Assembly (NCBI GenBank): GCA_001800245.1
Contig: MGVA01000043.1
Span: 93,098 to 157,097 of the forward strand
Origin: Elusimicrobia bacterium RIFOXYA12_FULL_51_18
GTDB lineage: Bacteria > Elusimicrobiota > Elusimicrobia > Elusimicrobiales > UBA9959
Length of the DNA: 64,000 nt
Direction of reading: 5' to 3'
Part shown: positions 1 through 53,565 of the stretch, in pieces
Numbering within the stretch: the first letter of the stretch is position 1
Layout: every line of letters starts with the position of its first letter
Translations under genes and position numbers: made by a program
Notes under the pieces: generated by a model
The model's database searches: none
Told to the model about the DNA's origin: nothing
What the model saw: only the letters and a program-made list of their open reading frames with translations

Positions 1-36
1 GATAATCTGGTCGTTTCAAATGCCTATGCCGCGGAG

Positions 37-744
37 ATGATTGATAAGGATCAAAGCCGAGAGGGGATTCATTTCTCTATCAGCAGAACCACGATGGGAC
101 GGATCCTGTCTGTTATTCATAAACCTATTGGATCATTGCGCGTTTTGGAAATCGGTGCGGGTGCGGGTTGTTTGGCTTCACGATTTGTCGAAAGTGGCGT
201 TGAGTATACAGGTGTCGAACCATCAAAGGAGCTTTATAGGCAGATTATCGCCGGGAAGCCTTATTTGGAGAAAAGAGTGTTGAATGGCCATATCGATGCG
301 GTTCCGTTGCCGCAAAAAAAGTATGACTTATTAGTCATGATCGATACTCTTGAGCATATCCCCAATCCGGTGGAATATTTGAGGAAGTTGAAATCATTTT
401 TATCAAATGATGGGGTTATGTATATAGAAGTGCCGAACGAGGCATTGTTGAGCCTCAAAGGAGCAATGCGGCGCGTTTTGAATGTGTATTCGGGTTATAT
501 AACGCATCCGGGGCATGTGAATTTGTTTAATGCAAATACGCTGCATATGGCGTTATCCGGAGCCGGATACAGGGCAATTTCTGTTTCTCAATATAGCGTG
601 TTTGGCGATTATAACCGGATGCAAGTCGCCTTAAAGGGACGATGGGCTGCGGGATGTAAAATTGCCTGCACAATTTTCAAATATTCAAAGATAGATTTAC
701 TTATGCAGCAAGGGAATCTCAGCGCATGCGCAAAGTGCGGCTGA
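37..744 (+). CDS. class I SAM-dependent methyltransferase
   Basis: 235-aa ORF with SAM-binding motif I 'VLEIGAGAGCLA' and post-I 'DLLVMIDTLEHI', typical of Methyltransf_11/23-type enzymes. Confidence 0.7.
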   Translation: MIDKDQSREGIHFSISRTTMGRILSVIHKPIGSLRVLEIGAGAGCLASRFVESGVEYTGVEPSKELYRQIIAGKPYLEKRVLNGHIDAVPLPQKKYDLLVMIDTLEHIPNPVEYLRKLKSFLSNDGVMYIEVPNEALLSLKGAMRRVLNVYSGYITHPGHVNLFNANTLHMALSGAGYRAISVSQYSVFGDYNRMQVALKGRWAAGCKIACTIFKYSKIDLLMQQGNLSACAKCG

Positions 745-781
745 CCCCTTAAATTGTTAGGAGTGAAAGCGTTTAAAATAA

Positions 782-2302
782 ATGAAAAGAATCAGGTCAT
801 TCTTCAAAGACCACTGGGGGATGCTACTGATTGTCTATTGCATTTCCTGCCTGTTTAACTCGATTGTTAATTTTAAGACGATCATGAACCCGTATTATAT
901 TTACGGAGATATTTCATTTTATGCTGTTTTTCATCGTTTGTGTTCGGCGCAGCCTCTTTTTACCAATGATTTATTCCTGTCCGTTTTTGACATGAAGCAG
1001 GTCTTGTTGCGCGTAGACATCCCAATCGTAAAATGGCTGCTGCCGGTCACTATTTTATTAATGAAAGCGATGTCTTTATCGCAGGTTCTTGTTGTCCAAT
1101 CAATTATTTTTTGTGTAATAGCGTCTGTTTTAATGTACTTGATCGGTGCCAGTATGGGTTCTAAAAAAGAAGCCCTCTTGTTGGTTGTTCTTTTTCTAAT
1201 CTATACCGGTTCCATGGATTCGTTCTATGGAGGTGCGGCGCGAGGATCCGGTATGGCGATAACTTGCGCTGGGTTCTATTGTTTGCACAGAAAATTTACC
1301 TATGCGATAATTATGCTGATACCGGTCGCCTGGTTATCATATCCGCCGATATTACCGCTGGTCGCAGCCTTTGCCGGTTACTCTATAATCCATAGAGGGG
1401 GCAAGATCAGGGATAAAATGGTATTAATTGGCCTGACGGGGCTGATGTTGTGCTTTTTTGCAGTCTGGTTGTTCCAAGTTGAAAAACAGGCCCTCTGGAA
1501 ACTCAGTTCTTTAATGGAATGGAAAAACAGGGCTGGGATCTTCGACCTAAGGAATAACTTATTGTTGGTATATGTTTTAAATATTAATGAACACTCGGCC
1601 CTGTATGTGATATTTACCGGAATAATGATCGGCGCCAGTTTAGTTTATGCTTTGCATGCGCGGAGGAATTCCGGTTTTGTCGGCAGGGAATTTATTTTAA
1701 TTTCCGCCGGTGTTTTTATAGCGGTGTTTTTTGTTAAAAAAGAAGTCGCCTCTCGAGAGGTTATTTTCTCGATCCCTGTTTTTTTAACAATTGCCTTTTG
1801 GCGCATCTTGCTGTCGTTTAAGAGCGGCGTGGTGCGATACGGGGCTTGTATGATTTTCGCTTTATTATTTTTACTGGTGCCTCCTAATGACGGGGATATT
1901 GATTTCAGCCGTTACAGGGAACTTTTTACGGATTTATCACATACGCCTTCCGATTTGTTGATTGCCGGTCCTCTGAAATCTTTAGATTTTGTCCCTTTTT
2001 TTACGCGTCAATCGGTTTTTTTTGCGCCTTTTTGGGAAGAGGCTAAGCATTGTGTCCCCTCGATGCAAACTGAACTAAAAAATAGAAAGCAAGAATTGGA
2101 AAAGATATTATATTCGAAAAATGAGCAAGAGATTGTGCGGTTTGCGGGACGCAACCACATTACGCATTTTATTGTTGATGATTATCTATACGCCGGGTAT
2201 AACTCTAACGGCGGGAGGCCGTTCGCATTGCAGGAGTTGGCGCATCGGCATGGGGTGGCGTATGGCAATGGCCTTTATCTTATTAATGTAAACCAGTTCT
2301 GA
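782..2302 (+). CDS. polytopic membrane protein of unknown function, many TM helices plus a soluble C-terminal domain of about 130 aa (GT-C/polymerase-like by topology only)
   Basis: 506-aa ORF with long hydrophobic segments throughout; starts 38 nt after the methyltransferase; no motif I can name. Confidence 0.5.
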   Translation: MKRIRSFFKDHWGMLLIVYCISCLFNSIVNFKTIMNPYYIYGDISFYAVFHRLCSAQPLFTNDLFLSVFDMKQVLLRVDIPIVKWLLPVTILLMKAMSLSQVLVVQSIIFCVIASVLMYLIGASMGSKKEALLLVVLFLIYTGSMDSFYGGAARGSGMAITCAGFYCLHRKFTYAIIMLIPVAWLSYPPILPLVAAFAGYSIIHRGGKIRDKMVLIGLTGLMLCFFAVWLFQVEKQALWKLSSLMEWKNRAGIFDLRNNLLLVYVLNINEHSALYVIFTGIMIGASLVYALHARRNSGFVGREFILISAGVFIAVFFVKKEVASREVIFSIPVFLTIAFWRILLSFKSGVVRYGACMIFALLFLLVPPNDGDIDFSRYRELFTDLSHTPSDLLIAGPLKSLDFVPFFTRQSVFFAPFWEEAKHCVPSMQTELKNRKQELEKILYSKNEQEIVRFAGRNHITHFIVDDYLYAGYNSNGGRPFALQELAHRHGVAYGNGLYLINVNQF

Positions 2303-2392
2303 GGTTTTTATTGATTCCCGGACGCATCCCTCGGGGAATATTAAAAGAACCTGTCTCCTTCGTTAACCAGACAATCGTGATCGGAATAAACT

Positions 2393-3841
2393 TCATCCCT
2401 CTCGCCTAAGCTTTGCAACGATAAAATGCGGATAGAGACGCAGGAAGCGTCCGGTGTGGAAATCTCCGCTAGATCTGCTGAGTACTCTGGCCGCCACACG
2501 GAGGAAGATATCTCCGACCGGCAGCGAGAACAGTCCGGGCCTGTGCGCTAGAAAGCGCCTGAGACTGCGCGGCAGGCGCGGCAACAGCGTTAGCAGTGAG
2601 AAATATGCCGCCTGCCTTCGCCTGGGGAGCTGCGAGTAGCCTGCCGGGCGCATCAGGCCGCCAGGTACGTTATGTTTCCCCGGCCGGGCCGTGGCCAGCG
2701 GGGTGTTTGGATATATGCGCAGAAAAAAAATTTCGTTGTGGTCGGGAGTGTTTTCCGCGTAGAAAGAGGCTAAGGCTGAAAGTTCTTCCTCGCTTTCATC
2801 GGGCAGGTCAAGGATGTTGTCACAGGTGACGTATACTCCCTCCGATCGCAGCGCGTTTATGGCCGCCCCTATGTCGGCGTTCGCCGCGCGCCTGCCCAGC
2901 AGCGTGCGGCGCCGGGCCTCGTCGAAGCGCTGTACTCCAAGCTGAACTTTCATGCACCCGGCGGCAGCCAGCGCAGGCGCCGCTTCAGCCAGGTGGTGGT
3001 CCGGGAACACGTAGCAGGAAAAAGGCAGGCCTATTTTTTTTCGGTAAAGAGGCAGGAATGTGTTTAGCCAGGCATAGTCCGAGTTAAATACTTCGTCGGT
3101 GAAATGTATAAAGTGTGGGTTCCTCTTACTTAGTGTTTCCACAAGTTCGGCCAGCATGTTCTCCGGGGAGCGGCGGCGCAACGGAGGTGTTTTGGAGGCT
3201 GCGTAGAGTTCCCTGTAAACGCTGTTGCAGCAATAGGTGCAGGAGTGTGGGCAGCCGCGTGAAGAGGATGCGAGGTATCCTTCGGAAAAACAGGGGTACG
3301 CTCCGGCGAATAGGTTCTTGTCTGGGAACGGCAGGGAGTTTATATCAGCCGGCGGCGCCGCAGGAGGGCCTTTTAATATCTCACCGTCTTTTTTTCCCCA
3401 GATGCCGGCAGGCAGGCTGCCGCCTGATGCGATGACTTTGGCCAGGGCCGGTAGAGCCAGGTCTCCTTCTCCGAGACATACGAAATCCACGCAGTCCTCC
3501 GCCAGGACGGTTTCAGGCGTTGAGGAAGCGTGTATTCCGCCAAAAACTATTTTAGCCCCCGTTCTTTTTTTTATTTCTCGTGCCATCGAAATGGCCCAGG
3601 GGAAGGTGTCGGTGAACACCGAAAAAGCCACTATGTCCGGCCTGTGCTTTTCAGTCAGGCGCAGAGCCTGTTCCCGAAAACTCAAGAATCCGGCCAGTAT
3701 TGTGGAACGCCAGAATCCGGCCTCGTCGAAAAGGCAGGGGTCTATAACCAGAGCGGTCTCAAAACCTGCCGCTTTGAGCGAAGCTGAAAGGTATTCGATC
3801 CCGAGACTTTCATAACCGTTATGGAGAAAGAGTATCTTCAT
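2393..3841 (-). CDS. B12-binding-domain radical SAM protein
   Basis: N-terminal Rossmann-like 'MKILFLHNGYESLGIEYLSASLKAAGF' (B12-binding type) and radical-SAM cluster 'CPHSCTYCC'. Start chosen at MKILF because its ATG overlaps the upstream stop (ATGA); the ORF track begins 18 codons earlier. Confidence 0.8.
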   Translation of the reverse strand: MKILFLHNGYESLGIEYLSASLKAAGFETALVIDPCLFDEAGFWRSTILAGFLSFREQALRLTEKHRPDIVAFSVFTDTFPWAISMAREIKKRTGAKIVFGGIHASSTPETVLAEDCVDFVCLGEGDLALPALAKVIASGGSLPAGIWGKKDGEILKGPPAAPPADINSLPFPDKNLFAGAYPCFSEGYLASSSRGCPHSCTYCCNSVYRELYAASKTPPLRRRSPENMLAELVETLSKRNPHFIHFTDEVFNSDYAWLNTFLPLYRKKIGLPFSCYVFPDHHLAEAAPALAAAGCMKVQLGVQRFDEARRRTLLGRRAANADIGAAINALRSEGVYVTCDNILDLPDESEEELSALASFYAENTPDHNEIFFLRIYPNTPLATARPGKHNVPGGLMRPAGYSQLPRRRQAAYFSLLTLLPRLPRSLRRFLAHRPGLFSLPVGDIFLRVAARVLSRSSGDFHTGRFLRLYPHFIVAKLRREG

Positions 3842-5172
3842 CCCGCCGGTTTCCCGGCCGCTGAGGCGGCGGCTCTGTCGGCGTCCAGAAGGCATTCTTC
3901 CATGTCGTAGTATGAATGAGCCCCGCTTCTGCCGCAGAGTTCCAGGTTTGCGTAGCGGCCCAAAGCCCCGGTCACCGTGTTAAGAGATTTTTCATAGCCC
4001 AGATACAGGAGAGGGTAGGCGAAAGGCAGCCTTTCCACTTTAAAGTCCAAAAGCTCAGATCCCTTGAATATTTTTATGGCCGAAAGGGCGTTGAACGTTG
4101 CCGCCGCTATGTCCGCATCCGGCTTGCGCCAGGTTTTGTCGTCCTCTTGGCAGAATATTTCCAGGGTAACCGGAAAGAAACCTTCTGGAACCAGGCCGCG
4201 GCTCCAGTTGAGCAGCTCGGATGCCCTGGAAAAGGGGACATCCGGGTCCTGGAAATAGACCCAGTGGTCCTTCAAGGGCGTGCGATTTTTGAGAGCCAGG
4301 AACACTATTATCAGGGAGCGGTAGCGCAGGTCCCGAGCCGCGCAGGCCAATTCGGGGTTGTCCCGGATAAGCGCGGAAAATTCTTTTAACGGGATGGTGG
4401 AAATAAGCTGCCTGAACTTTAAGGTCCCGCGGCATCCGTTTTGTTCAAATTCGAGAGCGGTCAGGCGGCCGCCCTCGGCCGTAAGTTTTAAAGGTATTGC
4501 GCCGGTAAGTATTTCTCCCCGGTCAGTGAGTTTTTTTCGCAGGGCGCCTGTAAGGCTTCCTATGCCGTCCTTCGGGTATAGGAAATGCCCGGCATTTTCC
4601 TTGGCGCCAGAGATGGGCAGGAAGATGTCGAAGAAAAGTTTTTTTAAGTCCAGGCTGCCTATGCGCCTCTCGGCCCAGATGGAGGAGATCTCTTCCGTAG
4701 GAAGGCCCCAGGCTTTTAATGAGTAATCCTTGAAATAGGCGTCATGTATTCGGGGCCCGAAGTTGCGGCCCAGCCAATCCTTGAGCGAGGCCGATTTCTC
4801 GTCCGCTTTCCGGGTGCCGTGCGTTTTGAAGCGCAGGGTTGGGAGGGCGTAAAAGATCCCATTCAGCAGCGTGGGGGGATATTGAAGGAACCGGCCGCGG
4901 GTGTAGATGCTGCTTTTCCTTTTATGGTATAACGTTCGTCCGGCCCCCAGGAGTTTTTCCACACGGCCTTTCACGTCGGCATCCTTGAAATAAAGCCTGT
5001 GGCCGCCCAGGTCGAATTTGAAATTCTTATGGGAAACGGTGGCCGCCAGGCCGCCTTCGCGCTCCGCTTTCTCCAGGATGAAAATTTTTTTCCCGCCTTC
5101 TTTAAGCCGGTCGGCGGCCGCCAGGCCGCTTAATCCCGCGCCGAGAATGGCGATGTCCGTGTTGATTTCCAT
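3838..5172 (-). CDS. FAD/NAD(P)-binding oxidoreductase (amine-oxidase / protoporphyrinogen-oxidase-like fold)
   Basis: 444-aa ORF with N-terminal dinucleotide-binding motif 'DIAILGAGLSGLAAADRL...ILEK'; translationally coupled to the B12-rSAM gene. Confidence 0.75.
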   Translation of the reverse strand: MEINTDIAILGAGLSGLAAADRLKEGGKKIFILEKAEREGGLAATVSHKNFKFDLGGHRLYFKDADVKGRVEKLLGAGRTLYHKRKSSIYTRGRFLQYPPTLLNGIFYALPTLRFKTHGTRKADEKSASLKDWLGRNFGPRIHDAYFKDYSLKAWGLPTEEISSIWAERRIGSLDLKKLFFDIFLPISGAKENAGHFLYPKDGIGSLTGALRKKLTDRGEILTGAIPLKLTAEGGRLTALEFEQNGCRGTLKFRQLISTIPLKEFSALIRDNPELACAARDLRYRSLIIVFLALKNRTPLKDHWVYFQDPDVPFSRASELLNWSRGLVPEGFFPVTLEIFCQEDDKTWRKPDADIAAATFNALSAIKIFKGSELLDFKVERLPFAYPLLYLGYEKSLNTVTGALGRYANLELCGRSGAHSYYDMEECLLDADRAAASAAGKPAG

Positions 5173-5182
5173 TGTAAGGTCC

Positions 5183-5296
5183 GGCTTATGACCATGCCGT
5201 AACTGCCCTGTGGGAGTGCCGCAGCAAGAGCTGTGCTCATCAAGCGGCCCGGCGCTATACGCACCAAACGGTCAAGCGCTATACGTTCAGACGGCC
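5183..5296 (-). repeat. dispersed repeat core (copy A)
   Basis: Reverse complement aligns with 19839-19930 from GGCCGTCTGA to CATAGGTC, with an internal 'CGTATAGCGC' duplication. Confidence 0.75.
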
Positions 5297-5452
5297 TTTT
5301 TATTCTACATAATTTGACCGCAGGGGAAATCGTTCCCACGTTCCCGTTCCCATGTTCCCGCGTTTGCCTGTGGCTCTATCCGGCTGAAGGTGTGCCGCCG
5401 CGGATTTAATGAGAAAAGCGCGAAAAAAGTCCCATAATGCTAAAATTATGTC

Positions 5453-6352
5453 ATGCCGGATATACCGGTCTGGAATAAATGTGATAATCTCTGCGTGATG
5501 TGCGCCAACGAACCCGCGTTCGTACGCGCTCCATCAGGCCGGTATTTGCTGAAATCACAAATAAAAAGGTTTGAAAGTTATCTTTCAGGTTTTAAGGCGG
5601 CTTACGCCAAAAACGCGGATAACTGCGCGGCGCTTAATCTCACCGGCGGCGAACCTGCGCTCAACCCCGATTTTTTAAAGCTGCTGACCTATTTTAGGAA
5701 AAGAACTCCCGGAAGGGAGCTGACGCTTTTGTCCAATGGCCGTTGTTTCTCCGCCGCCGTCTTTGCCGCCGCCGCGCTTAAGGCCGGGAAAGCCCCGTTC
5801 GCCGTGGTTGTAGCCCTGCACGGCTCCACCGCCGCCAGGCATGACTCCATAAGTAGAGTTCCGGGGAGTTTCAGCGCTACGCTTGCCGGTCTGCGCAATA
5901 TTTGCATCCATAAAAGTCCGGGGCAGACGCTGGAGATACGCCTGGTCCTCCACCGGCGGAACGTAAAAGACTTTGAAAATATTCTTCTGCTCCTGTTGCG
6001 GGAGTTTTCCGGTTTTAAAGGATGGCGGGCGGTAGCGCTGCATTACGAACTGGAAGGCCGAGCGCTGAAAAATTTAAAAGCGCTGGCGCTTCGGCTTAAA
6101 ACTTCAGCCGGAGCCGTCAACTCCTGCGCGGCGCTTATACGCCGGTTCAAAGAGTTCCGGCTCTACCATTTTCCGCTTTGTCTTTTGAAGAAAGAGCTGC
6201 GGCCCCTGGCCTGGATTACTTTGCCTACGGAAGACCGGTTTTATGCCCGGAAGTGCGGCGGCTGCGTGCTGCGCGCGAGTTGTGTGGGGTTGATGGCACG
6301 CTACAGCATCCGTTTCGGCTCAGGAGAGCTCAGGCCGCTCAAAACAATATAA
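5453..6352 (+). CDS. radical SAM protein with C-terminal Cys cluster (SPASM-like?)
   Basis: 'CDNLCVMC' (CxxxCxxC) at residues 10-17, 'LNLTGGEPALNP' SAM-binding glycine motif, C-terminal 'CGGCVLRASC'. Confidence 0.7.
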   Translation: MPDIPVWNKCDNLCVMCANEPAFVRAPSGRYLLKSQIKRFESYLSGFKAAYAKNADNCAALNLTGGEPALNPDFLKLLTYFRKRTPGRELTLLSNGRCFSAAVFAAAALKAGKAPFAVVVALHGSTAARHDSISRVPGSFSATLAGLRNICIHKSPGQTLEIRLVLHRRNVKDFENILLLLLREFSGFKGWRAVALHYELEGRALKNLKALALRLKTSAGAVNSCAALIRRFKEFRLYHFPLCLLKKELRPLAWITLPTEDRFYARKCGGCVLRASCVGLMARYSIRFGSGELRPLKTI

Positions 6353-6534
6353 TGGCTCCGCTTTTAAACATCGGATCGGTTGAGCGCCTCTGTCAGGGTG
6401 GATGCGGCGGGCACGGGTTTTGTTGCGGCAGGTCTTAAGGGACGTGATCTGTAAGGCGGACGCTCTATGGCCGGCAGGAGCGGGAAAATGTGACGGAGCC
6501 TACTATAGTATTGTATTATTATCCTTAAATTAGC

Positions 6535-7224
6535 ATGAAAAATGCGTTAGTGGTGAAAAATATATTTACACTGTCGGCGCTGGCGTTAGCCTGCGCCTGT
6601 TCCAGTGATTACGCGGCCTTGAGGCTGGGGAAGGACGCCTATGCGGATTTTGCCGGTCTTAAGGCCGCTAACAAGGAGGGGCTGGATTATTCCATAGAGG
6701 CGTATGACAGGAATTATCCGGCTGTAATTTTCGCTATCCATGGAGGCGATATCGAGCCCGGTACGGCCAGGGTGGCAAGGCGGATAGCGGGTTCCGATTT
6801 CAACCTTTATGTCTTTCAAGATTGGACGGGGCCGATAAAAAGCAGCCTGCACCTTACCGCCACACATTTTGATGAGCCGGCGGCCGTCCGGCTGGCCACC
6901 TCCAGCGTGGTGGCGCTCTCGGTGCACGGCCAGTGGGATAAAGGGGATTGGGTGTGCGTGGGCGGGCGAAATAAGGAACTTGGCAGGGCGGTTTCGGATA
7001 ACCTGATTCTCGCCGGTTTTGCCGCGGTGATTCCCTGTTCCCGGCTGCCCGGGATCAAGGCAACGAACATCGTTAACCGGGCCAGGGACGGCGGAGTCCA
7101 GCTTGAAATAACCCTTCGGCTGCTGAGAAGACTTGAAAAGTCCCCCGAAGATTTATCAAAATTTAGCGTCGCTGTCCGGTCCGCTGTTTTGGAATATTTA
7201 CAAAAACAAGGAGCAGCCAGATGA
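6535..7224 (+). CDS. poly-gamma-glutamate hydrolase-like (PghP/UPF0714 family) lipoprotein
   Basis: Lipobox-like signal 'LSALALACACSS'; 'IFAIHGGDIEPGT' and 'ALSVHG' resemble the PghP zinc-hydrolase family (recalled motif, not searched). Confidence 0.55.
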   Translation: MKNALVVKNIFTLSALALACACSSDYAALRLGKDAYADFAGLKAANKEGLDYSIEAYDRNYPAVIFAIHGGDIEPGTARVARRIAGSDFNLYVFQDWTGPIKSSLHLTATHFDEPAAVRLATSSVVALSVHGQWDKGDWVCVGGRNKELGRAVSDNLILAGFAAVIPCSRLPGIKATNIVNRARDGGVQLEITLRLLRRLEKSPEDLSKFSVAVRSAVLEYLQKQGAAR

Positions 7225-8330
7225 AGAAAATAAGGATCTTCGCTTTCGGCGGGAATGAGGTATCTCCGGTGGGGATGAAGGACCCGAAGACCGGCAAGGG
7301 GATAAACCCCGATATCGCCATGCAGTGGCGCAAGACGGCCGAGACCGCTAAACTTGTGGCCGATATTTTTGAAAAATACCCGGACGATCTCTACGTCATG
7401 ACCCACGGCAACGGCCCGCAGGTGGGCAATGTGCTTATGCGCGCCGAGCTGTGCCGCGACACCCTGCCTCCGCTTCCTCTGGATGTCTGTGTGGCGGATA
7501 CGCAGGGCGCGATGGCTTATATGATAGCCCAGCTCAATAACGAGCTCAATATAAGGGGGATCGACAATATCGTCTCCGGTATAGTCACCCAGGTGGTGGT
7601 GGATAAGGACGATCCGGATTTTAAAAACCCCTCCAAGTACATAGGGCCCTCCTATTCCAAGGAGGAGGCGGATGACCGAACCGTCCATAACGGCTGGGTG
7701 ATGAAACTTTATAAGAAGGATGACAAAGGCGCCGAGATCTGGCGCCGCGTGGTGCCTTCCCCGGTTCCGTCCGATATAGTGGAAATTGACGCCATAGAGG
7801 CTATGCTTGCCCGGGGGATAGTGCCGGTGACCGTGGGCGGCGGCGGTATCCCGGTCCGCGAGGTCATGCCCGAGATCAAGGATGGCAAAGAAGTATACTC
7901 CTGTAATTACGGCGTACAATTCTCAAGGGCTCACAAGGCCGGCGCGAAACGGTTGAAAATGTACACCGGCGTGGAAGCCGTTATAGACAAGGATCTGGCC
8001 TCGGCGTTGCTGGGGAATATGCTTTTAAAGCGGGCGAAGGCGCGCGGCGAGGATGTGGAGGTCAGCCTTACCATTTTCACCGGCGAAGATGGGGCCAAGT
8101 TGAATTACCAGAAGCCCGATCAGGTGGACTTGCGCAAGCTGACATTGACTGAGCTGGAAGAAATATATAACCGCAAGCCCTGCCCGTTCCCGGCCGGAAG
8201 CATGGGGCCCAAGATCAAAGCTGTAATCGAGTTTCTCAAGGGAGGAGGCCAATCAGCCTTTATCACCAAAACCGACTTGTTCGATGAGACCCTGAAGGGC
8301 GGCGCCGGCACCACTGTGACCAGGGAATGA
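7221..8330 (+). CDS. arcC: carbamate kinase (with internal insertion)
   Basis: 'FGGNE', 'HGNGPQVGN', 'PLDVCVADTQGAM', 'WRRVVPSPVPSDIVE', 'GGGGIPV', 'GVEAVIDKDLAS', 'FPAGSMGPKI' line up with canonical carbamate kinases; ATGA overlap with the upstream gene. Confidence 0.8.
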   Translation: MKKIRIFAFGGNEVSPVGMKDPKTGKGINPDIAMQWRKTAETAKLVADIFEKYPDDLYVMTHGNGPQVGNVLMRAELCRDTLPPLPLDVCVADTQGAMAYMIAQLNNELNIRGIDNIVSGIVTQVVVDKDDPDFKNPSKYIGPSYSKEEADDRTVHNGWVMKLYKKDDKGAEIWRRVVPSPVPSDIVEIDAIEAMLARGIVPVTVGGGGIPVREVMPEIKDGKEVYSCNYGVQFSRAHKAGAKRLKMYTGVEAVIDKDLASALLGNMLLKRAKARGEDVEVSLTIFTGEDGAKLNYQKPDQVDLRKLTLTELEEIYNRKPCPFPAGSMGPKIKAVIEFLKGGGQSAFITKTDLFDETLKGGAGTTVTRE

Positions 8331-8409
8331 CAGCAAGGCGTGCCGGCTCCGGGGCAATAGGAATCTTCCGGCACGCTTCTACACCCGATACTCACCGACA
8401 CTTACAACT

Positions 8410-9648
8410 ATGAAAAAAATAAAGACTTTGCAGTGCATTAATTGCGGCCGCGATCATAAATTAGCTGAAGTGAAATATACCTGCGCTTCGTGCGGGGGGA
8501 ACCTTCAGGTCATCTACGACTACAATCTGATAAAAAAACGTCTTAACTACGAAGTCCTCAAGGATAATCACGACAGGACCCTCTGGCGGTACATGGATAT
8601 CCTGCCGCTGGCCGGTTTTAAGATGATCCCGCCGGTACAGGTGGGCTGGACGCCGCTTTACAAGGCCGAAAGGCTCGGCGCCGGAGCCGGAGTGCCGAAT
8701 CTTTACATAAAGGACGATGGCCGCAATCCCAGCGCGTCTTTCAAGGACCGGGCCAGCGCCGTGGTGATCGCGAGGGCGCGGGAGCTCAAGGAAAAAGTCA
8801 TAACATGCGCTTCCACCGGCAATGCGGCGTCATCCCTGGCCTGTCTGACCGGCAGTCTGGATATGAAGACGGTCATCTTTGTTCCGGAAACCGCGCCCGC
8901 GCCTAAAGTGGCGCAACTGCTGGTGTTCGGCGCCGTGGTTATTATGGTGAAGGGAACTTATGACGACGCTTTTGACCTTTGTCTCAAAGCCTCGGCGGAA
9001 TACGGCTGGTACAACCGCAGTACGGGTATAAATCCTTTTACCCGCGAAGGGAAAAAGACCTGCGCTTTTGAGATCTGCGAGCAGATGAAGTGGGAGACCC
9101 CGGACAAGGTGTTCGTGTCTGTGGGCGACGGTAATATTATAAGCGGCATGTGGAAAGGCTTCGTGGAATTCCACCGGCTTGGTATTATAGAAAAATTGCC
9201 CCAGCTTATAGCCGTTCAGGCCGAAAAATCGGACGCCGTAAAAAGGGCTTTTGAAGCCGGGGGAGACATACAGCCGGTGTCCGGGGAAACTATCGCCGAC
9301 AGTATATCGGTAAGCCTACCCAGAGACGGCATGGCCGCCGTAATGGCTATAAGGGATTCCCAGGGTTTCGCCGTTTCTGTTTCCGACACGGAGATCCTTT
9401 CCGCCATCCCGGAAATTGCCCGCGGGTCCAATGTTTTTGCCGAGCCGGCCGCGGCCGCCACATATGCCGGTTTAAGAAAAGCGGTTAAAGAAGGCAGGGT
9501 TAAAGATAATGAATCGGTGGTTCTTTTGATAAGCGGCAACGGGTTGAAAGATGTGCAGAGCGCCGTTAAGGCCTGCGGCCAGCCGTTCCATATTAATCCC
9601 AGAATGGAAGAGCTGAAAAAGCTGGTATTGGACAATAAACTGCCATAG
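8410..9648 (+). CDS. threonine synthase-like PLP-dependent (fold type II) enzyme with N-terminal zinc ribbon
   Basis: 'CINCG...CASCGG' four-Cys ribbon; PLP-lysine motif 'SFKDRAS'; 'CASTGNAA'; 412 aa. Confidence 0.7.
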   Translation: MKKIKTLQCINCGRDHKLAEVKYTCASCGGNLQVIYDYNLIKKRLNYEVLKDNHDRTLWRYMDILPLAGFKMIPPVQVGWTPLYKAERLGAGAGVPNLYIKDDGRNPSASFKDRASAVVIARARELKEKVITCASTGNAASSLACLTGSLDMKTVIFVPETAPAPKVAQLLVFGAVVIMVKGTYDDAFDLCLKASAEYGWYNRSTGINPFTREGKKTCAFEICEQMKWETPDKVFVSVGDGNIISGMWKGFVEFHRLGIIEKLPQLIAVQAEKSDAVKRAFEAGGDIQPVSGETIADSISVSLPRDGMAAVMAIRDSQGFAVSVSDTEILSAIPEIARGSNVFAEPAAAATYAGLRKAVKEGRVKDNESVVLLISGNGLKDVQSAVKACGQPFHINPRMEELKKLVLDNKLP

Positions 9649-53494: not shown

Positions 53495-53565
53495 AGCGGG
53501 CGATGGGAATCGAACCCACATCTCAACCTTGGCAAGGTCGTGTACTACCACTGTACGACGCCCGC
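53495..53565 (-). tRNA. tRNA-Gly (anticodon GCC)
   Basis: Minus strand GCGGGCG...CTTGCCAAG...GGTTCGATTCCCAT-CGCCCGC-T; cloverleaf arms present, CCA not encoded. Confidence 0.9.

What the first reader, a model, noticed from the sequence alone, without database searches (positions are those of the whole stretch)
37..6352. Compact cluster: methyltransferase, polytopic membrane protein, B12-radical SAM, flavoprotein, second radical SAM, with no recognisable pathway
Five adjacent genes combine chemistry typical of difficult C-H functionalisation.
- A class-B (B12-binding) radical SAM, 'CPHSCTYCC'.
- An FAD/NAD(P) oxidoreductase translationally coupled to it (ATGA overlap).
- A second, small radical SAM with N-terminal 'CDNLCVMC' and a C-terminal Cys cluster.
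- A class I SAM methyltransferase.
- A 506-aa many-TM protein with a soluble tail.

I found no precursor-peptide-like small ORF in the flanking intergenic DNA, so a RiPP role is not supported. The membrane protein and flavoprotein make lipid or cell-envelope glycan tailoring a plausible alternative, such as methylation, desaturation or cross-linking. That is inference from family-level knowledge only. The window starts inside or just upstream of the cluster, so it may extend leftwards.
Basis: partly seen in the sequence, partly recalled or inferred. Interest (0 to 1): 0.6.

Follow-up and report, generated by a model that had tools for sequence, protein, structure and literature searches.

The report
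Radical-SAM-rich surface glycan gene island
The five genes are the right-hand edge of a roughly 25 kb island in an uncultured groundwater Elusimicrobia genome; four of them most likely build and attach unusual radical-modified sugars to the cell envelope, and the fifth belongs to a neighbouring operon.

Summary
All five genes exist as described, and their sequence motifs are confirmed. Three details need correction.

- **Methyltransferase:** it is cut by the window edge. The true gene is 288 aa with a Zn ribbon and starts 123 nt upstream.
- **"Oxidoreductase":** it is a UDP-galactopyranose-mutase-like enzyme.
- **Membrane protein:** the 506-aa protein is a GT-C-fold glycosyltransferase from a rare family that Pfam and NCBIfam do not cover.

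The cluster continues at least 18 kb to the left. That stretch adds ten more radical SAM genes, six of them B12-type, plus a sugar aminotransferase and two U32 pairs.

In related Elusimicrobia and Omnitrophota loci, the mutase-like gene and the B12-radical SAM stay translationally coupled. The GT-C family and the methyltransferase recur beside them. One natural protein fuses this B12-radical SAM family to this methyltransferase family. Neighbours in those loci are GT2, PMT_2, GT9, sugar epimerase, polysaccharide deacetylase and acetyltransferases.

The small HxsC-like radical SAM stays with the downstream operon (PGA-hydrolase-like, carbamate-kinase-like, threonine-synthase-like) even where the glycan genes are absent. 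It is therefore not part of the module.

Verdict: this is a mosaic, variable envelope-glycan biosynthesis island with unusually many radical SAM genes. The exact chemistry is unknown. I found no precursor peptide, no lipid-pathway genes and no NifH-like gene.

The parts
1..744 (+). 3' 744 nt (residues 42-288) of a 288-aa class I SAM methyltransferase (Zn ribbon plus Methyltransf_23). The gene starts 123 nt upstream of the window.
   Evidence: - Pfam PF13489, 81 bits.
- Full-length gene on L001 9097-9963.
- Homologues at 33-39% identity sit next to GT-C family members in L012, L095 and L010.
- Fused to a B12-radical SAM of the window's family in P0064.
782..2302 (+). 506-aa GT-C-fold glycosyltransferase of a rare, uncurated family. 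It has about 10-12 TM helices plus a 140-aa C-terminal globular domain, and is the last gene of the long plus-strand radical SAM operon.
   Evidence: - No Pfam or NCBIfam hit for it, and no Pfam hit for any of 44 relatives.
- Only 88 clusters (at 50% identity) among 1.84 billion representatives.
- AF2 model: pLDDT 88.7, pTM 0.91.
- Foldseek top 22 hits are all GT-C enzymes: DPY19, STT3/PglB/AglB, ALG12, AftA/B/D, ArnT. The tail resembles the AglB C-terminal domain.
- D43 is invariant and D63 nearly invariant in the first external loop.
2393..3841 (-). 482-aa class B (B12-binding domain) radical SAM enzyme, translationally coupled to the upstream mutase-like gene.
   Evidence: - PF02310 at 72.7 bits and PF04055 at 58.5 bits.
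- No NCBIfam equivalog reached; best is 73 bits against a cut-off of 360.
- AF2 model pLDDT 89.3. Top Foldseek hits are TsrM, MgmA, CysS and TokK, then AprD4 and OxsB.
- Orthologues at 38-93% identity in Elusimicrobia and Omnitrophota.
3838..5172 (-). 444-aa FAD enzyme of the eukaryote-type UDP-galactopyranose mutase kind (PRK07208 group). Probably a nucleotide-sugar pyranose/furanose mutase.
   Evidence: - PDB: A. fumigatus and T. cruzi UGMs at E 6e-23 with the single sequence and 5e-39 with a profile. Protoporphyrinogen oxidase scores only 1e-15.
- Invariant H58 (GGH loop), R170, W304, R316, Y386, R415 and Y421 align with AfUGM H63, R182, W315, R327, Y419, R447 and Y453. The AfUGM residue numbers and roles are from my own knowledge.
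- Sits directly upstream of the B12-radical SAM with a 4-nt overlap in the window, L006, L012 and L013.
5453..6352 (+). 299-aa HxsC-like radical SAM with a C-terminal Cys cluster. It is not part of the glycan module; it is the first gene of the conserved backbone gene set to its right.
   Evidence: - TIGR03977 HxsC scores 142 bits against a cut-off of 268.
- No HxsA, HxsB or HxsD nearby.
- Its orthologue in L099 (66% identity) keeps the downstream TPR / PGA-hydrolase / carbamate-kinase / ThrC / GAF-kinase genes. On its other side it has sulfatases instead of the mutase and B12 pair.
- Absent from L012, L010, L096 and L008, which do carry the module.
6535..9648 (+). Backbone genes that travel with the HxsC-like gene: poly-gamma-glutamate-hydrolase-like (6535-7224), carbamate-kinase-like (7221-8330, 4-nt overlap) and threonine-synthase-like with a Zn ribbon (8410-9648).
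   Evidence: - PF05908 at 147 bits.
- TIGR00746 at 250 bits, below its 358 cut-off. PRK08197 threonine synthase at 305 bits against a 303 cut-off.
- Synteny is kept in L006, L013 and L099.

Best explanation
Window 1-5172 is the right-hand end of a mosaic island of about 25 kb, probably assembled by horizontal transfer. Its most likely job is to make and attach unusual sugars to an envelope glycoconjugate of an anaerobic groundwater Elusimicrobia bacterium (RIFOXYA12_FULL_51_18).

**Proposed mechanism**
1. In the cytoplasm, a UGM-like flavoenzyme converts a nucleotide-diphospho-sugar from the pyranose to the furanose form. This is inferred from conserved active-site residues.
2. Its translationally coupled partner, a cobalamin-type radical SAM enzyme, modifies an unactivated carbon of that sugar or of its lipid-linked form. 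C-methylation is most likely, because the nearest solved folds are Cbl-dependent methylases. Deoxygenation or ring rearrangement, as in AprD4, OxsB or HpnJ, is not excluded.
3. The leftward operons carry out further edits. They hold one SPASM radical SAM and five more B12-radical SAMs in one operon, and a divergent operon of radical SAM, B12-radical SAM, DegT aminotransferase and radical SAM. The Zn-ribbon class I methyltransferase adds an O- or N-methyl group.
4. The sugar is loaded onto polyprenyl phosphate. The GT2 for this step is present in related loci but not in this one.
5. The 506-aa GT-C enzyme then transfers the sugar on the periplasmic face to a glycan, lipid A-core or protein acceptor.

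**What is shown:** gene content, protein folds, conserved residues, co-conservation and gene fusions.

**What is inferred:** the substrates, the order of steps and every reaction.

The HxsC-like radical SAM at 5453-6352 is a neighbour that belongs to a separate conserved operon.
For: **Folds and active sites**
- GT-C fold of the 506-aa protein, with an invariant Asp in the first external loop.
- The flavoprotein matches UGMs far better than any oxidase, and keeps the diphosphate-binding Arg and Tyr residues.
- The B12-radical SAM has the class B fold. Its nearest structures are TsrM, MgmA, CysS and TokK. Its nearest solved sequence relative is the sugar-acting AprD4.

**Co-conservation**
- The mutase-like gene lies directly upstream of the B12-radical SAM, with a 4-nt overlap, in the window, L006, L012 and L013.
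- In L012 one operon reads mutase, B12-radical SAM, GT-C family, MT.
- GT-C family members occur in 5 of 6 independent loci whose B12-radical SAM is at least 38% identical, and in 0 of 78 loci with more distant ones.
- Starting instead from the GT-C family recovers the same gene set. L095 has GT-C, MT, deacetylase, GT2, radical SAM, a second GT-C, GT2 and PMT_2. L096 has U32, UGM-like, epimerase, two radical SAMs (one SPASM), GNAT, B12, deacetylase, GT-C, a B12-radical SAM of the window's family, a further SPASM and radical SAM, GT9 and PMT_2.

**Gene fusions**
- P0064 fuses the window's B12-radical SAM family to a full-length MT homologue, E 1e-34.
- A 585-aa protein in L006 fuses a SPASM radical SAM to an MT, next to a GT-C family gene.

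**Other context**
- A DegT/PseC-type sugar aminotransferase lies in the leftward extension.
- Mosaic GC of 0.40-0.65 per gene is typical of variable glycan loci.
Against: - No reaction, substrate or product is known for any of these proteins, and none reaches an NCBIfam equivalog cut-off.
- This genome's island has no polyprenyl-phosphate GT2, flippase, Wzx/Wzy or ABC exporter within the 83 kb examined.
- In this genome the GT-C and MT genes are convergent to the mutase and B12 pair, not co-transcribed with it. They also have a different GC, so their link here rests on other genomes.
- All comparison loci are MAG or metagenome contigs from a few related phyla, so synteny is partly shared ancestry.
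- The best NCBIfam matches of the B12-radical SAMs are to lipid or tetrapyrrole enzymes (ladderane-type, HpnJ, BchE), although far below cut-off.
- Cobalamin binding cannot be read from sequence. AprD4 has the same domain but no cobalamin (the latter from my own knowledge).
Confidence: 0.68

Rival explanations
1. This is a biosynthetic cluster for a diffusible glycosylated small molecule, such as an aminoglycoside-like, nucleoside-like or lipoglycopeptide natural product, rather than for an envelope glycan. The radical SAMs, aminotransferase, mutase and methyltransferase would tailor a sugar or cyclitol scaffold.
For: - The closest solved relatives of two of the radical SAMs are antibiotic sugar enzymes: AprD4 and BlsE.
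- The DegT aminotransferase, several radical SAMs and an MT resemble aminoglycoside logic.
- GT-C enzymes do occur in some natural-product pathways. One example is the ramoplanin mannosyltransferase Ram29, judged from the listing of PMC4635501.
Against: - No scaffold-forming enzyme (NRPS, PKS, 2-deoxy-scyllo-inosose synthase), resistance gene or exporter appears in the gene lists.
- Related loci carry GT9 (LPS heptosyltransferase family), PMT_2, polysaccharide deacetylase and TPR proteins, which are typical of envelope loci.
- Gene content varies from genome to genome at a conserved chromosomal site, as surface-glycan loci do.
Confidence: 0.1
2. The genes tailor a membrane lipid. The B12-radical SAMs would methylate or cross-link hopanoid, ether or polyprenyl lipids, with the flavoprotein acting as a desaturase and the membrane protein as a lipid-handling enzyme.
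For: - Top NCBIfam hits of the B12-radical SAMs include the ladderane-type lipid B12-radical SAM, HpnJ and HpnR.
- The membrane protein is polytopic.
- GT-C donors are lipid-linked, so some steps may well occur on a polyprenyl carrier.
Against: - All of those hits are 3-8 fold below the family cut-offs.
- The flavoprotein matches UGM at E 5e-39, against 1e-15 for protoporphyrinogen oxidase in the profile search. Phytoene desaturase appears only as a weak N-terminal hit in the single-sequence search.
- No squalene or hopene cyclase, fatty-acid, plasmalogen or isoprenoid genes occur in this locus or in the related loci examined.
- The membrane protein is a glycosyltransferase fold.
Confidence: 0.08
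3. The radical SAMs, including the SPASM-type ones and the HxsC-like enzyme, act on a ribosomal peptide. This would be a RiPP or peptide-maturation system.
For: - SPASM radical SAMs and B12-radical SAM arrays occur in proteusin-type RiPP clusters (my own knowledge).
- The small radical SAM is HxsC-like.
- NCBIfam lists weak RiPP methylase hits.
Against: - No credible small ORF lies in any intergenic stretch, and the gaps are mostly under 200 bp.
- No leader-peptide protease, RiPP recognition element protein or transporter is present.
- HxsA, HxsB and HxsD are absent, and the HxsC score is below cut-off.
- The context is dominated by sugar enzymes.
Confidence: 0.04
4. This is part of the radical SAM suites linked to nitrogenase-like (Nfl) paralogues in groundwater Elusimicrobia, which have been proposed to make a novel tetrapyrrole cofactor.
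For: - Meheust et al. (bioRxiv 10.1101/765248) report up to 13 radical SAM genes, some with B12 domains, next to NifH/D/K paralogues in related genomes.
- HxsC-like paralogues lie in giant radical SAM operons in other Elusimicrobia.
Against: - No NifH-type P-loop (KGG[IV]GK[ST]) occurs in any frame of the 83 kb covered by L011 plus the window.
- No tetrapyrrole genes are present.
- The co-conserved partners are a sugar mutase and a glycosyltransferase.
Confidence: 0.03
5. The adjacency has no functional meaning. Unrelated genes happen to lie side by side at a recombination hot spot.
For: - There are three transcription units with convergent and divergent orientations, and a GC step of 0.42 to 0.56 at 2302-2393.
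- The HxsC-like gene is indeed only a neighbour.
Against: - The rare GT-C family and the MT recur next to this B12-radical SAM family in separate phyla.
- They are in a single operon in L012.
- B12-radical SAM plus MT fusion proteins exist.
Confidence: 0.05

Closest known systems
Periplasmic glycan-modification systems built on a GT-C enzyme: GtrA/GtrB/GtrV O-antigen glucosylation, ArnC/ArnT, the mycobacterial DPA/Aft/Emb pathway, and the GT136 pentofuranose three-component system of Kelly et al. 2024 (PMC11127046)
   Same: - A polytopic GT-C glycosyltransferase with an extra C-terminal extracytoplasmic domain.
- Cytoplasmic enzymes that diversify the sugar before transfer.
- A furanose sugar is implied by the mutase.
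- Related loci carry a small GT2 next to GT-C or PMT_2 genes.
- Solved arabinofuranosyltransferases and ArnT are among the fold hits.
   Different: - The GT-C belongs to no Pfam family; its CAZy status was not checked.
- No polyprenyl-phosphate synthase or flippase lies in this locus.
- Diversification relies on up to a dozen radical SAM enzymes rather than epimerases. I found no precedent for that in the literature searches.
UDP-galactopyranose mutase, eukaryote-type (A. fumigatus 3UTE, T. cruzi 4DSG)
   Same: - FAD Rossmann motif and the GGH histidine loop.
- The Arg and Tyr residues that hold the UDP diphosphate align and are invariant in the family.
   Different: - Only about 20-25% identity.
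- PF03275 (GLF) and TIGR00031 are not reached.
- AfUGM N457 does not appear to be conserved, by eye only.
- The substrate is unknown.
- It is obligatorily paired with a B12-radical SAM, which no known UGM is.
Cobalamin-dependent (class B) radical SAM enzymes acting on sugars or small molecules: GenK, GenD1 and Fom3 methylases, the TokK/CysS/TsrM structures, AprD4 dehydratase, OxsB ring contraction
   Same: - N-terminal B12-type Rossmann domain plus a CxxxCxxC radical SAM barrel.
- High-confidence structural match.
- The sugar context matches GenK and AprD4 logic.
   Different: - No equivalog model is matched.
- It has a family-specific C-terminal helical domain of about 100 aa (residues ~400-480).
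- It sits in an envelope-glycan-type locus rather than an antibiotic cluster.
His-Xaa-Ser system maturase HxsC (TIGR03977)
   Same: The small radical SAM aligns over nearly the whole model (residues 7-281 against model positions 32-289 of 292), and both carry a C-terminal Cys cluster.
   Different: - The score is 142 bits against a cut-off of 268.
- There are no HxsA, HxsB or HxsD neighbours here.
- The paralogues at 47-54% identity that do sit beside HxsB-like or HxsD genes are in other loci.

Membership tests
GT-C glycosyltransferase superfamily | Polytopic membrane fold with the conserved GT-C transmembrane core | tested here: met
   AF2 model has pLDDT 88.7 and pTM 0.91. The top 22 Foldseek PDB hits are all GT-C enzymes at probability 1.00 and TM about 0.5.
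GT-C glycosyltransferase superfamily | Conserved acidic catalytic residue in the first extracytoplasmic loop, next to a juxtamembrane helix | tested here: met
   D43 is invariant and D63 is at least 90% conserved across 44 family members. D43 sits at the start of helix 42-54, just after TM1.
GT-C glycosyltransferase superfamily | Uses a polyprenyl-phosphate-linked sugar donor | not testable with these tools
   This needs biochemistry. The only indirect support is GT2 genes beside family members in L010, L012 and L095.
Curated GT-C sequence families (Pfam PMT_2, PMT, STT3, ArnT-type and others) | Significant match to a curated family profile | tested here: not met
   No Pfam or NCBIfam hit for the window protein, and no Pfam hit for any of 44 relatives at E up to 0.01.
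UDP-galactopyranose mutase | FAD-binding Rossmann motif and the flavin-contacting GGH loop | tested here: met
   ILGAGLSGL and DLGGH are present, and G56 and H58 are invariant in 7 orthologues.
UDP-galactopyranose mutase | Arg and Tyr residues that bind the UDP diphosphate (AfUGM R182, R327, Y419, R447, Y453; residue roles from my own knowledge) | tested here: met
   They align with R170, R316, Y386, R415 and Y421, all invariant. This rests on alignment only.
UDP-galactopyranose mutase | Reaches the curated family thresholds (TIGR00031, PF03275 GLF) | tested here: not met
   TIGR00031 scores 32.6 bits against a 303.75 cut-off, over the N-terminus only. PF03275 is not reported, and is only 'faint' in the L096 homologue.
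Class B (cobalamin-dependent) radical SAM methyltransferases | B12-binding domain plus a CxxxCxxC radical SAM core | tested here: met
   PF02310 scores 72.7 bits (cut-off 32.1) and PF04055 scores 58.5 bits. C197, C201 and C204 are invariant.
Class B (cobalamin-dependent) radical SAM methyltransferases | Overall fold closest to solved Cbl-dependent methylases | tested here: met
   TsrM, MgmA, CysS and TokK rank 1-10, at E 1e-17 to 9e-16 and TM 0.61-0.65. AprD4 and OxsB follow.
Class B (cobalamin-dependent) radical SAM methyltransferases | Binds cobalamin and transfers a methyl group | not testable with these tools
   No sequence motif decides this. AprD4 shares the domain without binding cobalamin (my own knowledge).
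His-Xaa-Ser system (HxsABCD) | HxsC equivalog score, and HxsA peptide, HxsB and HxsD encoded alongside | tested here: not met
   TIGR03977 scores 142.3 bits against a 267.9 cut-off. The neighbours are the mutase-like gene and a PGA-hydrolase-like gene.
RiPP biosynthetic cluster | A precursor-peptide gene next to the maturases | tested here: not met
   No credible short ORF lies in the intergenic DNA of the window or L011. The spacer around 5331-5386 is not even alignable with the 93% relative.
Three-component periplasmic glycosylation system (polyprenyl-P-sugar synthase, flippase, GT-C) | All three components encoded together | tested here: not met
   Only the GT-C is present in this locus. 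GT2 appears in related loci. No flippase was identified.
Nfl (nitrogenase-like) associated radical SAM suites of Elusimicrobia | Adjacent NifH/NifD-like genes | tested here: not met
   No NifH P-loop motif in six-frame translations of the window plus L011, 83 kb in all. The rest of the 189 kb scaffold was not examined.

The most novel reading that the evidence does not exclude
Anaerobic uncultured bacteria (Elusimicrobia, Omnitrophota) have a previously unrecognised way of diversifying surface sugars. A UGM-like mutase and a dedicated cobalamin radical SAM act as a coupled pair on a furanose nucleotide sugar. Arrays of further B12 and SPASM radical SAMs, possibly with U32-type anaerobic hydroxylases, build C-alkylated, branched or ring-rearranged sugars. 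A new GT-C family then installs these sugars on the envelope. This would be the first radical SAM-driven pathway for cell-surface glycan chemistry.
Probability: 0.3. Interest if true: 0.8.

Novelty: new variant of a known kind. Interest (0 to 1): 0.6.

Why it matters
- **New setting for known chemistry.** Cobalamin-dependent radical SAM enzymes acting on sugars are characterised almost only in antibiotic pathways (my own knowledge). A conserved, translationally coupled mutase and B12-radical SAM pair inside envelope-glycan-type loci would extend that chemistry to cell-surface glycans of anaerobes. It would also predict sugars not yet seen in any glycan database.
- **A new GT-C family.** The 506-aa protein defines a GT-C family with no curated profile. 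It has 88 clusters at 50% identity among 1.84 billion representatives.
- **A concrete experiment.** The pair, the methyltransferase fusion and the GT-C together form a small gene set that can be tested by heterologous expression.
- **Annotation.** OGS07530 to OGS07534 are all currently deposited as "hypothetical protein".

Tried and rejected
- **Word-index homologue search** for the membrane protein found only its own 94% relative. The exhaustive HMMER search was needed.
- **Metagenome scan** with the 44-sequence GT-C alignment failed because no block was conserved enough. With 8 sequences it returned only 2 loci, so co-occurrence statistics rest on about 9 independent loci.
It returned mostly distant B12-radical SAMs below 38% identity, which served only as negative controls.
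- **Rfam** found no riboswitch, and only one tRNA in the window.
- **Promoter and terminator scans** were at background level and uninformative.
- **Literature searches** for radical SAM with UGM, GT-C, O-antigen or polysaccharide, and for PRK07208, found nothing relevant.
- **Rejected:** RiPP; an Nfl cofactor suite; flavoprotein as a desaturase or amine oxidase; the HxsC-like gene as a module member.

Full report
**1. The observation**

Pfam confirms the following:
- 37-744: a class I methyltransferase (Methyltransf_23, 81 bits).
- 2393-3841 (minus strand): a B12-binding plus Radical_SAM protein.
- 3838-5172 (minus strand): an Amino_oxidase/NAD_binding_8 flavoprotein.
- 5453-6352: a Radical_SAM protein.

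The 506-aa protein at 782-2302 matches nothing in Pfam or NCBIfam. The motifs CPHSCTYCC and CDNLCVMC are present. The ATGA overlap is real: the flavoprotein's TGA overlaps the ATG of MKILF at 3838-3841.

Two anatomical corrections follow from longer contigs of the same organism, Elusimicrobia bacterium RIFOXYA12_FULL_51_18, where all five proteins are deposited as "hypothetical protein".
- First, the methyltransferase starts 123 nt before the window. It is 288 aa and has an N-terminal four-Cys Zn ribbon. The ATG at position 37 is internal.
- Second, the genes belong to three transcription units. MT and the membrane gene end a plus-strand operon. The flavoprotein and B12-radical SAM form a convergent bicistron. 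The small radical SAM is divergent from that bicistron.

**2. The cluster extends far to the left**

The membrane gene is the last of eight co-directional genes: one SPASM radical SAM, five B12-radical SAMs (paralogue sets a/b/c and d/e), the MT, and the membrane protein.

Further left lies a divergent operon of radical SAM, B12-radical SAM, DegT/PseC-type aminotransferase and radical SAM. The B12-radical SAM there is 39% identical to the window's. Beyond that come two tandem pairs, each a U32-family protein plus an unannotated partner, and then another radical SAM. That makes 12 radical SAM genes in about 25 kb.

Per-gene GC is mosaic:

| Genes | GC |
|---|---|
| B12d, B12e, MT, membrane gene | 0.40-0.445 |
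| B12a, B12b, B12c | 0.47-0.49 |
| One radical SAM (346 aa) | 0.645 |
| Flavoprotein, window B12-radical SAM, everything to the right | 0.53-0.565 |

To the right of about 6.4 kb the window is ordinary backbone: PGA-hydrolase-like, carbamate-kinase-like, threonine-synthase-like, a GAF histidine kinase, a C11 peptidase, GuaB, GuaA and HrpB.

**3. What the individual proteins are**

*Membrane protein.* An exhaustive HMMER search found only 88 clusters at 50% identity among 1.84 billion representatives, nearly all 500-560 aa. None of 44 members has a Pfam hit. An AlphaFold model built on that alignment is confident, with pLDDT 88.7 and pTM 0.91.

Its top 22 Foldseek matches in the PDB are all GT-C glycosyltransferases: DPY19, STT3/PglB/AglB, ALG12, AftA/AftB/AftD and ArnT. 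The C-terminal 140 aa resembles the AglB C-terminal globular domain. D43 is invariant and D63 is nearly invariant. Both lie in the first loop after TM1, at the start of a short helix, which is where GT-C enzymes carry their catalytic acid. I therefore call it a GT-C glycosyltransferase of an uncurated family.

*Flavoprotein.* Its best solved relatives are eukaryote-type UDP-galactopyranose mutases. The E-value is 6e-23 with the single sequence and 5e-39 with a seven-sequence profile. Bacterial UGMs come next, and protoporphyrinogen oxidase reaches only 1e-15. The GGH loop and the residues aligning with AfUGM R182, W315, R327, Y419, R447 and Y453 are invariant in the family. It does not reach the TIGR00031 or GLF thresholds. 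It falls in the unnamed PRK07208 group, again below cut-off. It is best described as a UGM-like nucleotide-sugar mutase, not a generic oxidoreductase.

*B12-radical SAM.* No NCBIfam equivalog comes close; the best is 73 bits against a cut-off of 360. The model (pLDDT 89.3) is closest to the cobalamin-dependent methylases TsrM, MgmA, CysS and TokK, then to AprD4 and OxsB. By sequence profile the nearest solved protein is the sugar-acting AprD4.

*Small radical SAM.* It is HxsC-like but below threshold, at 142 bits against 268, and has no HxsA, HxsB or HxsD nearby.

**4. Co-conservation**

Orthologues of the B12-radical SAM at 65-93% identity occur in many groundwater Elusimicrobia. More distant ones, at 38-50%, occur in other Elusimicrobiota and in Omnitrophota.

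| Locus | Arrangement |
|---|---|
| L006 (70% identity) | PMT_2-like, mutase-like, B12-radical SAM, NAD-epimerase, Acetyltransf_6. A convergent operon holds a GT-C family member followed by a SPASM-radical-SAM/methyltransferase fusion. |
| L013 (46%) | TPR, mutase-like, B12-radical SAM, Acetyltransf_6. Convergent to it: GT-C family, epimerase, two B12-radical SAMs, two SPASM radical SAMs and a further B12-radical SAM. |
| L012 (48%) | Mutase-like, B12-radical SAM, GT-C family and MT are consecutive on one strand with 14-70 nt gaps. U32 pairs lie upstream; GT2 and PMT_2-like genes lie downstream. |
| L010 (Omnitrophota, 41%) | Two B12-radical SAMs, MT (36% identity), two unknown genes, B12-radical SAM, GT-C family, GT2, B12-radical SAM. 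|

Anchoring on the GT-C family gives the same picture.
- L095 has GT-C, MT, polysaccharide deacetylase, GT2, radical SAM, a second GT-C, GT2 and PMT_2.
- L096 has U32, mutase-like, epimerase, two radical SAMs (one SPASM), GNAT, B12-radical SAM, deacetylase, GT-C, a B12-radical SAM of the window's family, a further SPASM radical SAM, GT9, another radical SAM and PMT_2.

An HMM of the GT-C family hits 5 of the 6 independent loci whose B12-radical SAM is at least 38% identical to the window's. It hits none of the 78 loci with more distant B12-radical SAMs.

Two natural fusions tie the parts together.
- P0064 (790 aa) joins a B12-radical SAM of this family to a full-length homologue of the window's methyltransferase, Zn ribbon included, at E 1e-34.
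- The L006 protein of 585 aa joins a SPASM radical SAM to an MT.

**5. The fifth gene**

The HxsC-like gene keeps its place next to the mutase and B12 pair in the window, L006, L013 and several other Elusimicrobia contigs. That is synteny within one lineage, however.

In L099 its 66% orthologue retains the whole right-hand backbone: TPR, PGA-hydrolase-like, carbamate-kinase-like, ThrC-like, GAF kinase and C11 peptidase. On its left it has sulfatases, a methyltransferase and a HemN-like radical SAM, with no mutase and B12 pair. Conversely, L012, L010, L096 and L008 carry the module without it.

It therefore belongs to the backbone. The glycan island is variable cargo inserted beside it. Paralogues at 47-54% identity sit in giant operons of ten or more radical SAM genes, some with HxsB-like or HxsD genes.

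**6. Mechanism proposed**

I commit to the following model.
1. The mutase-like enzyme makes a furanose nucleotide sugar.
2. The coupled B12-radical SAM functionalises an unactivated carbon of it. C-methylation is most likely.
3. The leftward radical SAMs, the aminotransferase and the methyltransferase add further edits.
4. The product is carried on polyprenyl phosphate and transferred by the GT-C enzyme on the periplasmic face to an envelope glycoconjugate.

Folds, conserved residues, co-conservation and fusions are shown. Substrates, step order and chemistry are inferred.

There are four weak points:
- No GT2, flippase or exporter lies in this genome's island.
- In this genome the GT-C and MT genes are convergent to the pair and have a different GC.
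- No family threshold is met by any enzyme.
- All comparisons use MAG contigs.

**7. Rivals**

- A diffusible glycosylated natural product is the strongest rival, because of the weak AprD4 and BlsE resemblances. No scaffold, resistance or export genes are present, and related loci carry GT9, PMT_2 and polysaccharide deacetylase.
- Lipid tailoring rests only on far-sub-threshold HpnJ and ladderane-type hits.
- RiPP lacks any precursor ORF.
- The Nfl-associated radical SAM suites described for groundwater Elusimicrobia (bioRxiv 10.1101/765248) are not supported here. No NifH-type P-loop occurs in the 83 kb examined.

**8. Comparison with known systems, and novelty**

The closest concept is periplasmic glycan modification by a GT-C enzyme fed by a lipid-linked sugar that is diversified in the cytoplasm. 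Examples are Gtr, Arn, the mycobacterial arabinan pathway, and the GT136 pentofuranose system of Kelly et al. 2024 (PMC11127046).

This locus differs in three ways. It has an uncurated GT-C family. It has a conserved UGM-like and B12-radical SAM pair. Its density of radical SAM enzymes has no description in any paper my searches found.

I rate it a new variant of a known kind, with interest 0.6. It is not an artefact and does not fall into a characterised pathway, but its chemistry is still unknown.

Noticed in passing
L011 1661-5099 (13-17 kb left of the window start); also L012 5194-8590, the L096 5' end, and L092 1380-4866: There are two tandem pairs, 62% identical to each other. Each pair is a weak Peptidase_U32-family protein (about 295 aa) overlapping a partner of about 280 aa that has no Pfam or NCBIfam hit. 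The same pairs, at 78-82% identity, lie directly upstream of the mutase and B12 operon in L012. U32 genes also adjoin radical SAM arrays in L092 and L096. U32 proteins include O2-independent hydroxylases such as UbiU/UbiV (my own knowledge), so these could be anaerobic hydroxylases in the same pathway.
   Followed up: partly
window 5453-9648: A gene set is conserved across Elusimicrobia: HxsC-like radical SAM, sometimes a TPR protein, poly-gamma-glutamate-hydrolase-like, carbamate-kinase-like (4-nt overlap, below the arcC cut-off), and a threonine-synthase-like protein with a Zn ribbon. It is kept in L006, L013 and L099. Its function is unknown, and it may be a pathway in its own right.
   Followed up: partly
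L092, L093, L094, L100 (other Elusimicrobia contigs): Paralogues of the small radical SAM (47-54% identity) sit in uninterrupted operons of about ten radical SAM genes. Each has a large HxsB-like (Fer4_12) radical SAM nearby and ends with Aminotran_5. HxsD (PF27806), U32 and HemN_C genes each appear in some of these operons. They may correspond to the radical SAM suites noted by Meheust et al. 2020.
   Followed up: no
P0064 (790 aa, Logan contig of 15.6 kb) and L006 16252-18009: Two natural gene fusions exist. One joins a B12-radical SAM of the window's family to a Zn-ribbon methyltransferase. The other joins a SPASM radical SAM to a methyltransferase.
   Followed up: yes
L011 7253-8773 (minus strand): A second copy of the window's B12-radical SAM family (39% identity, 506 aa) lies next to a DegT/PseC-type aminotransferase and two small radical SAMs. 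This recalls the DesI/DesII aminotransferase and radical SAM pairing in deoxysugar synthesis (my own knowledge).
   Followed up: no
L011 5197-6237 compared with L011 15500-20741 (the latter runs into window 1-2302): Per-gene GC ranges from 0.40 to 0.645 within 15 kb. The step from 0.42 to 0.565 falls exactly at the convergent gap at window 2302-2393. No integrase, transposase or tRNA was seen at these boundaries.
   Followed up: partly
L001 6280-9089: Public gene calls for the two B12-radical SAMs d and e disagree on the start codon between assemblies: 427, 441 or 464 aa, and 387, 421 or 463 aa. The longest ORFs restore a complete N-terminal B12 domain.
   Followed up: no
window 53495-53565: A single tRNA-Gly (GCC) is the only Rfam or ARAGORN hit in the 64 kb. 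No cobalamin or SAM riboswitch precedes any of the radical SAM operons.
   Followed up: yes
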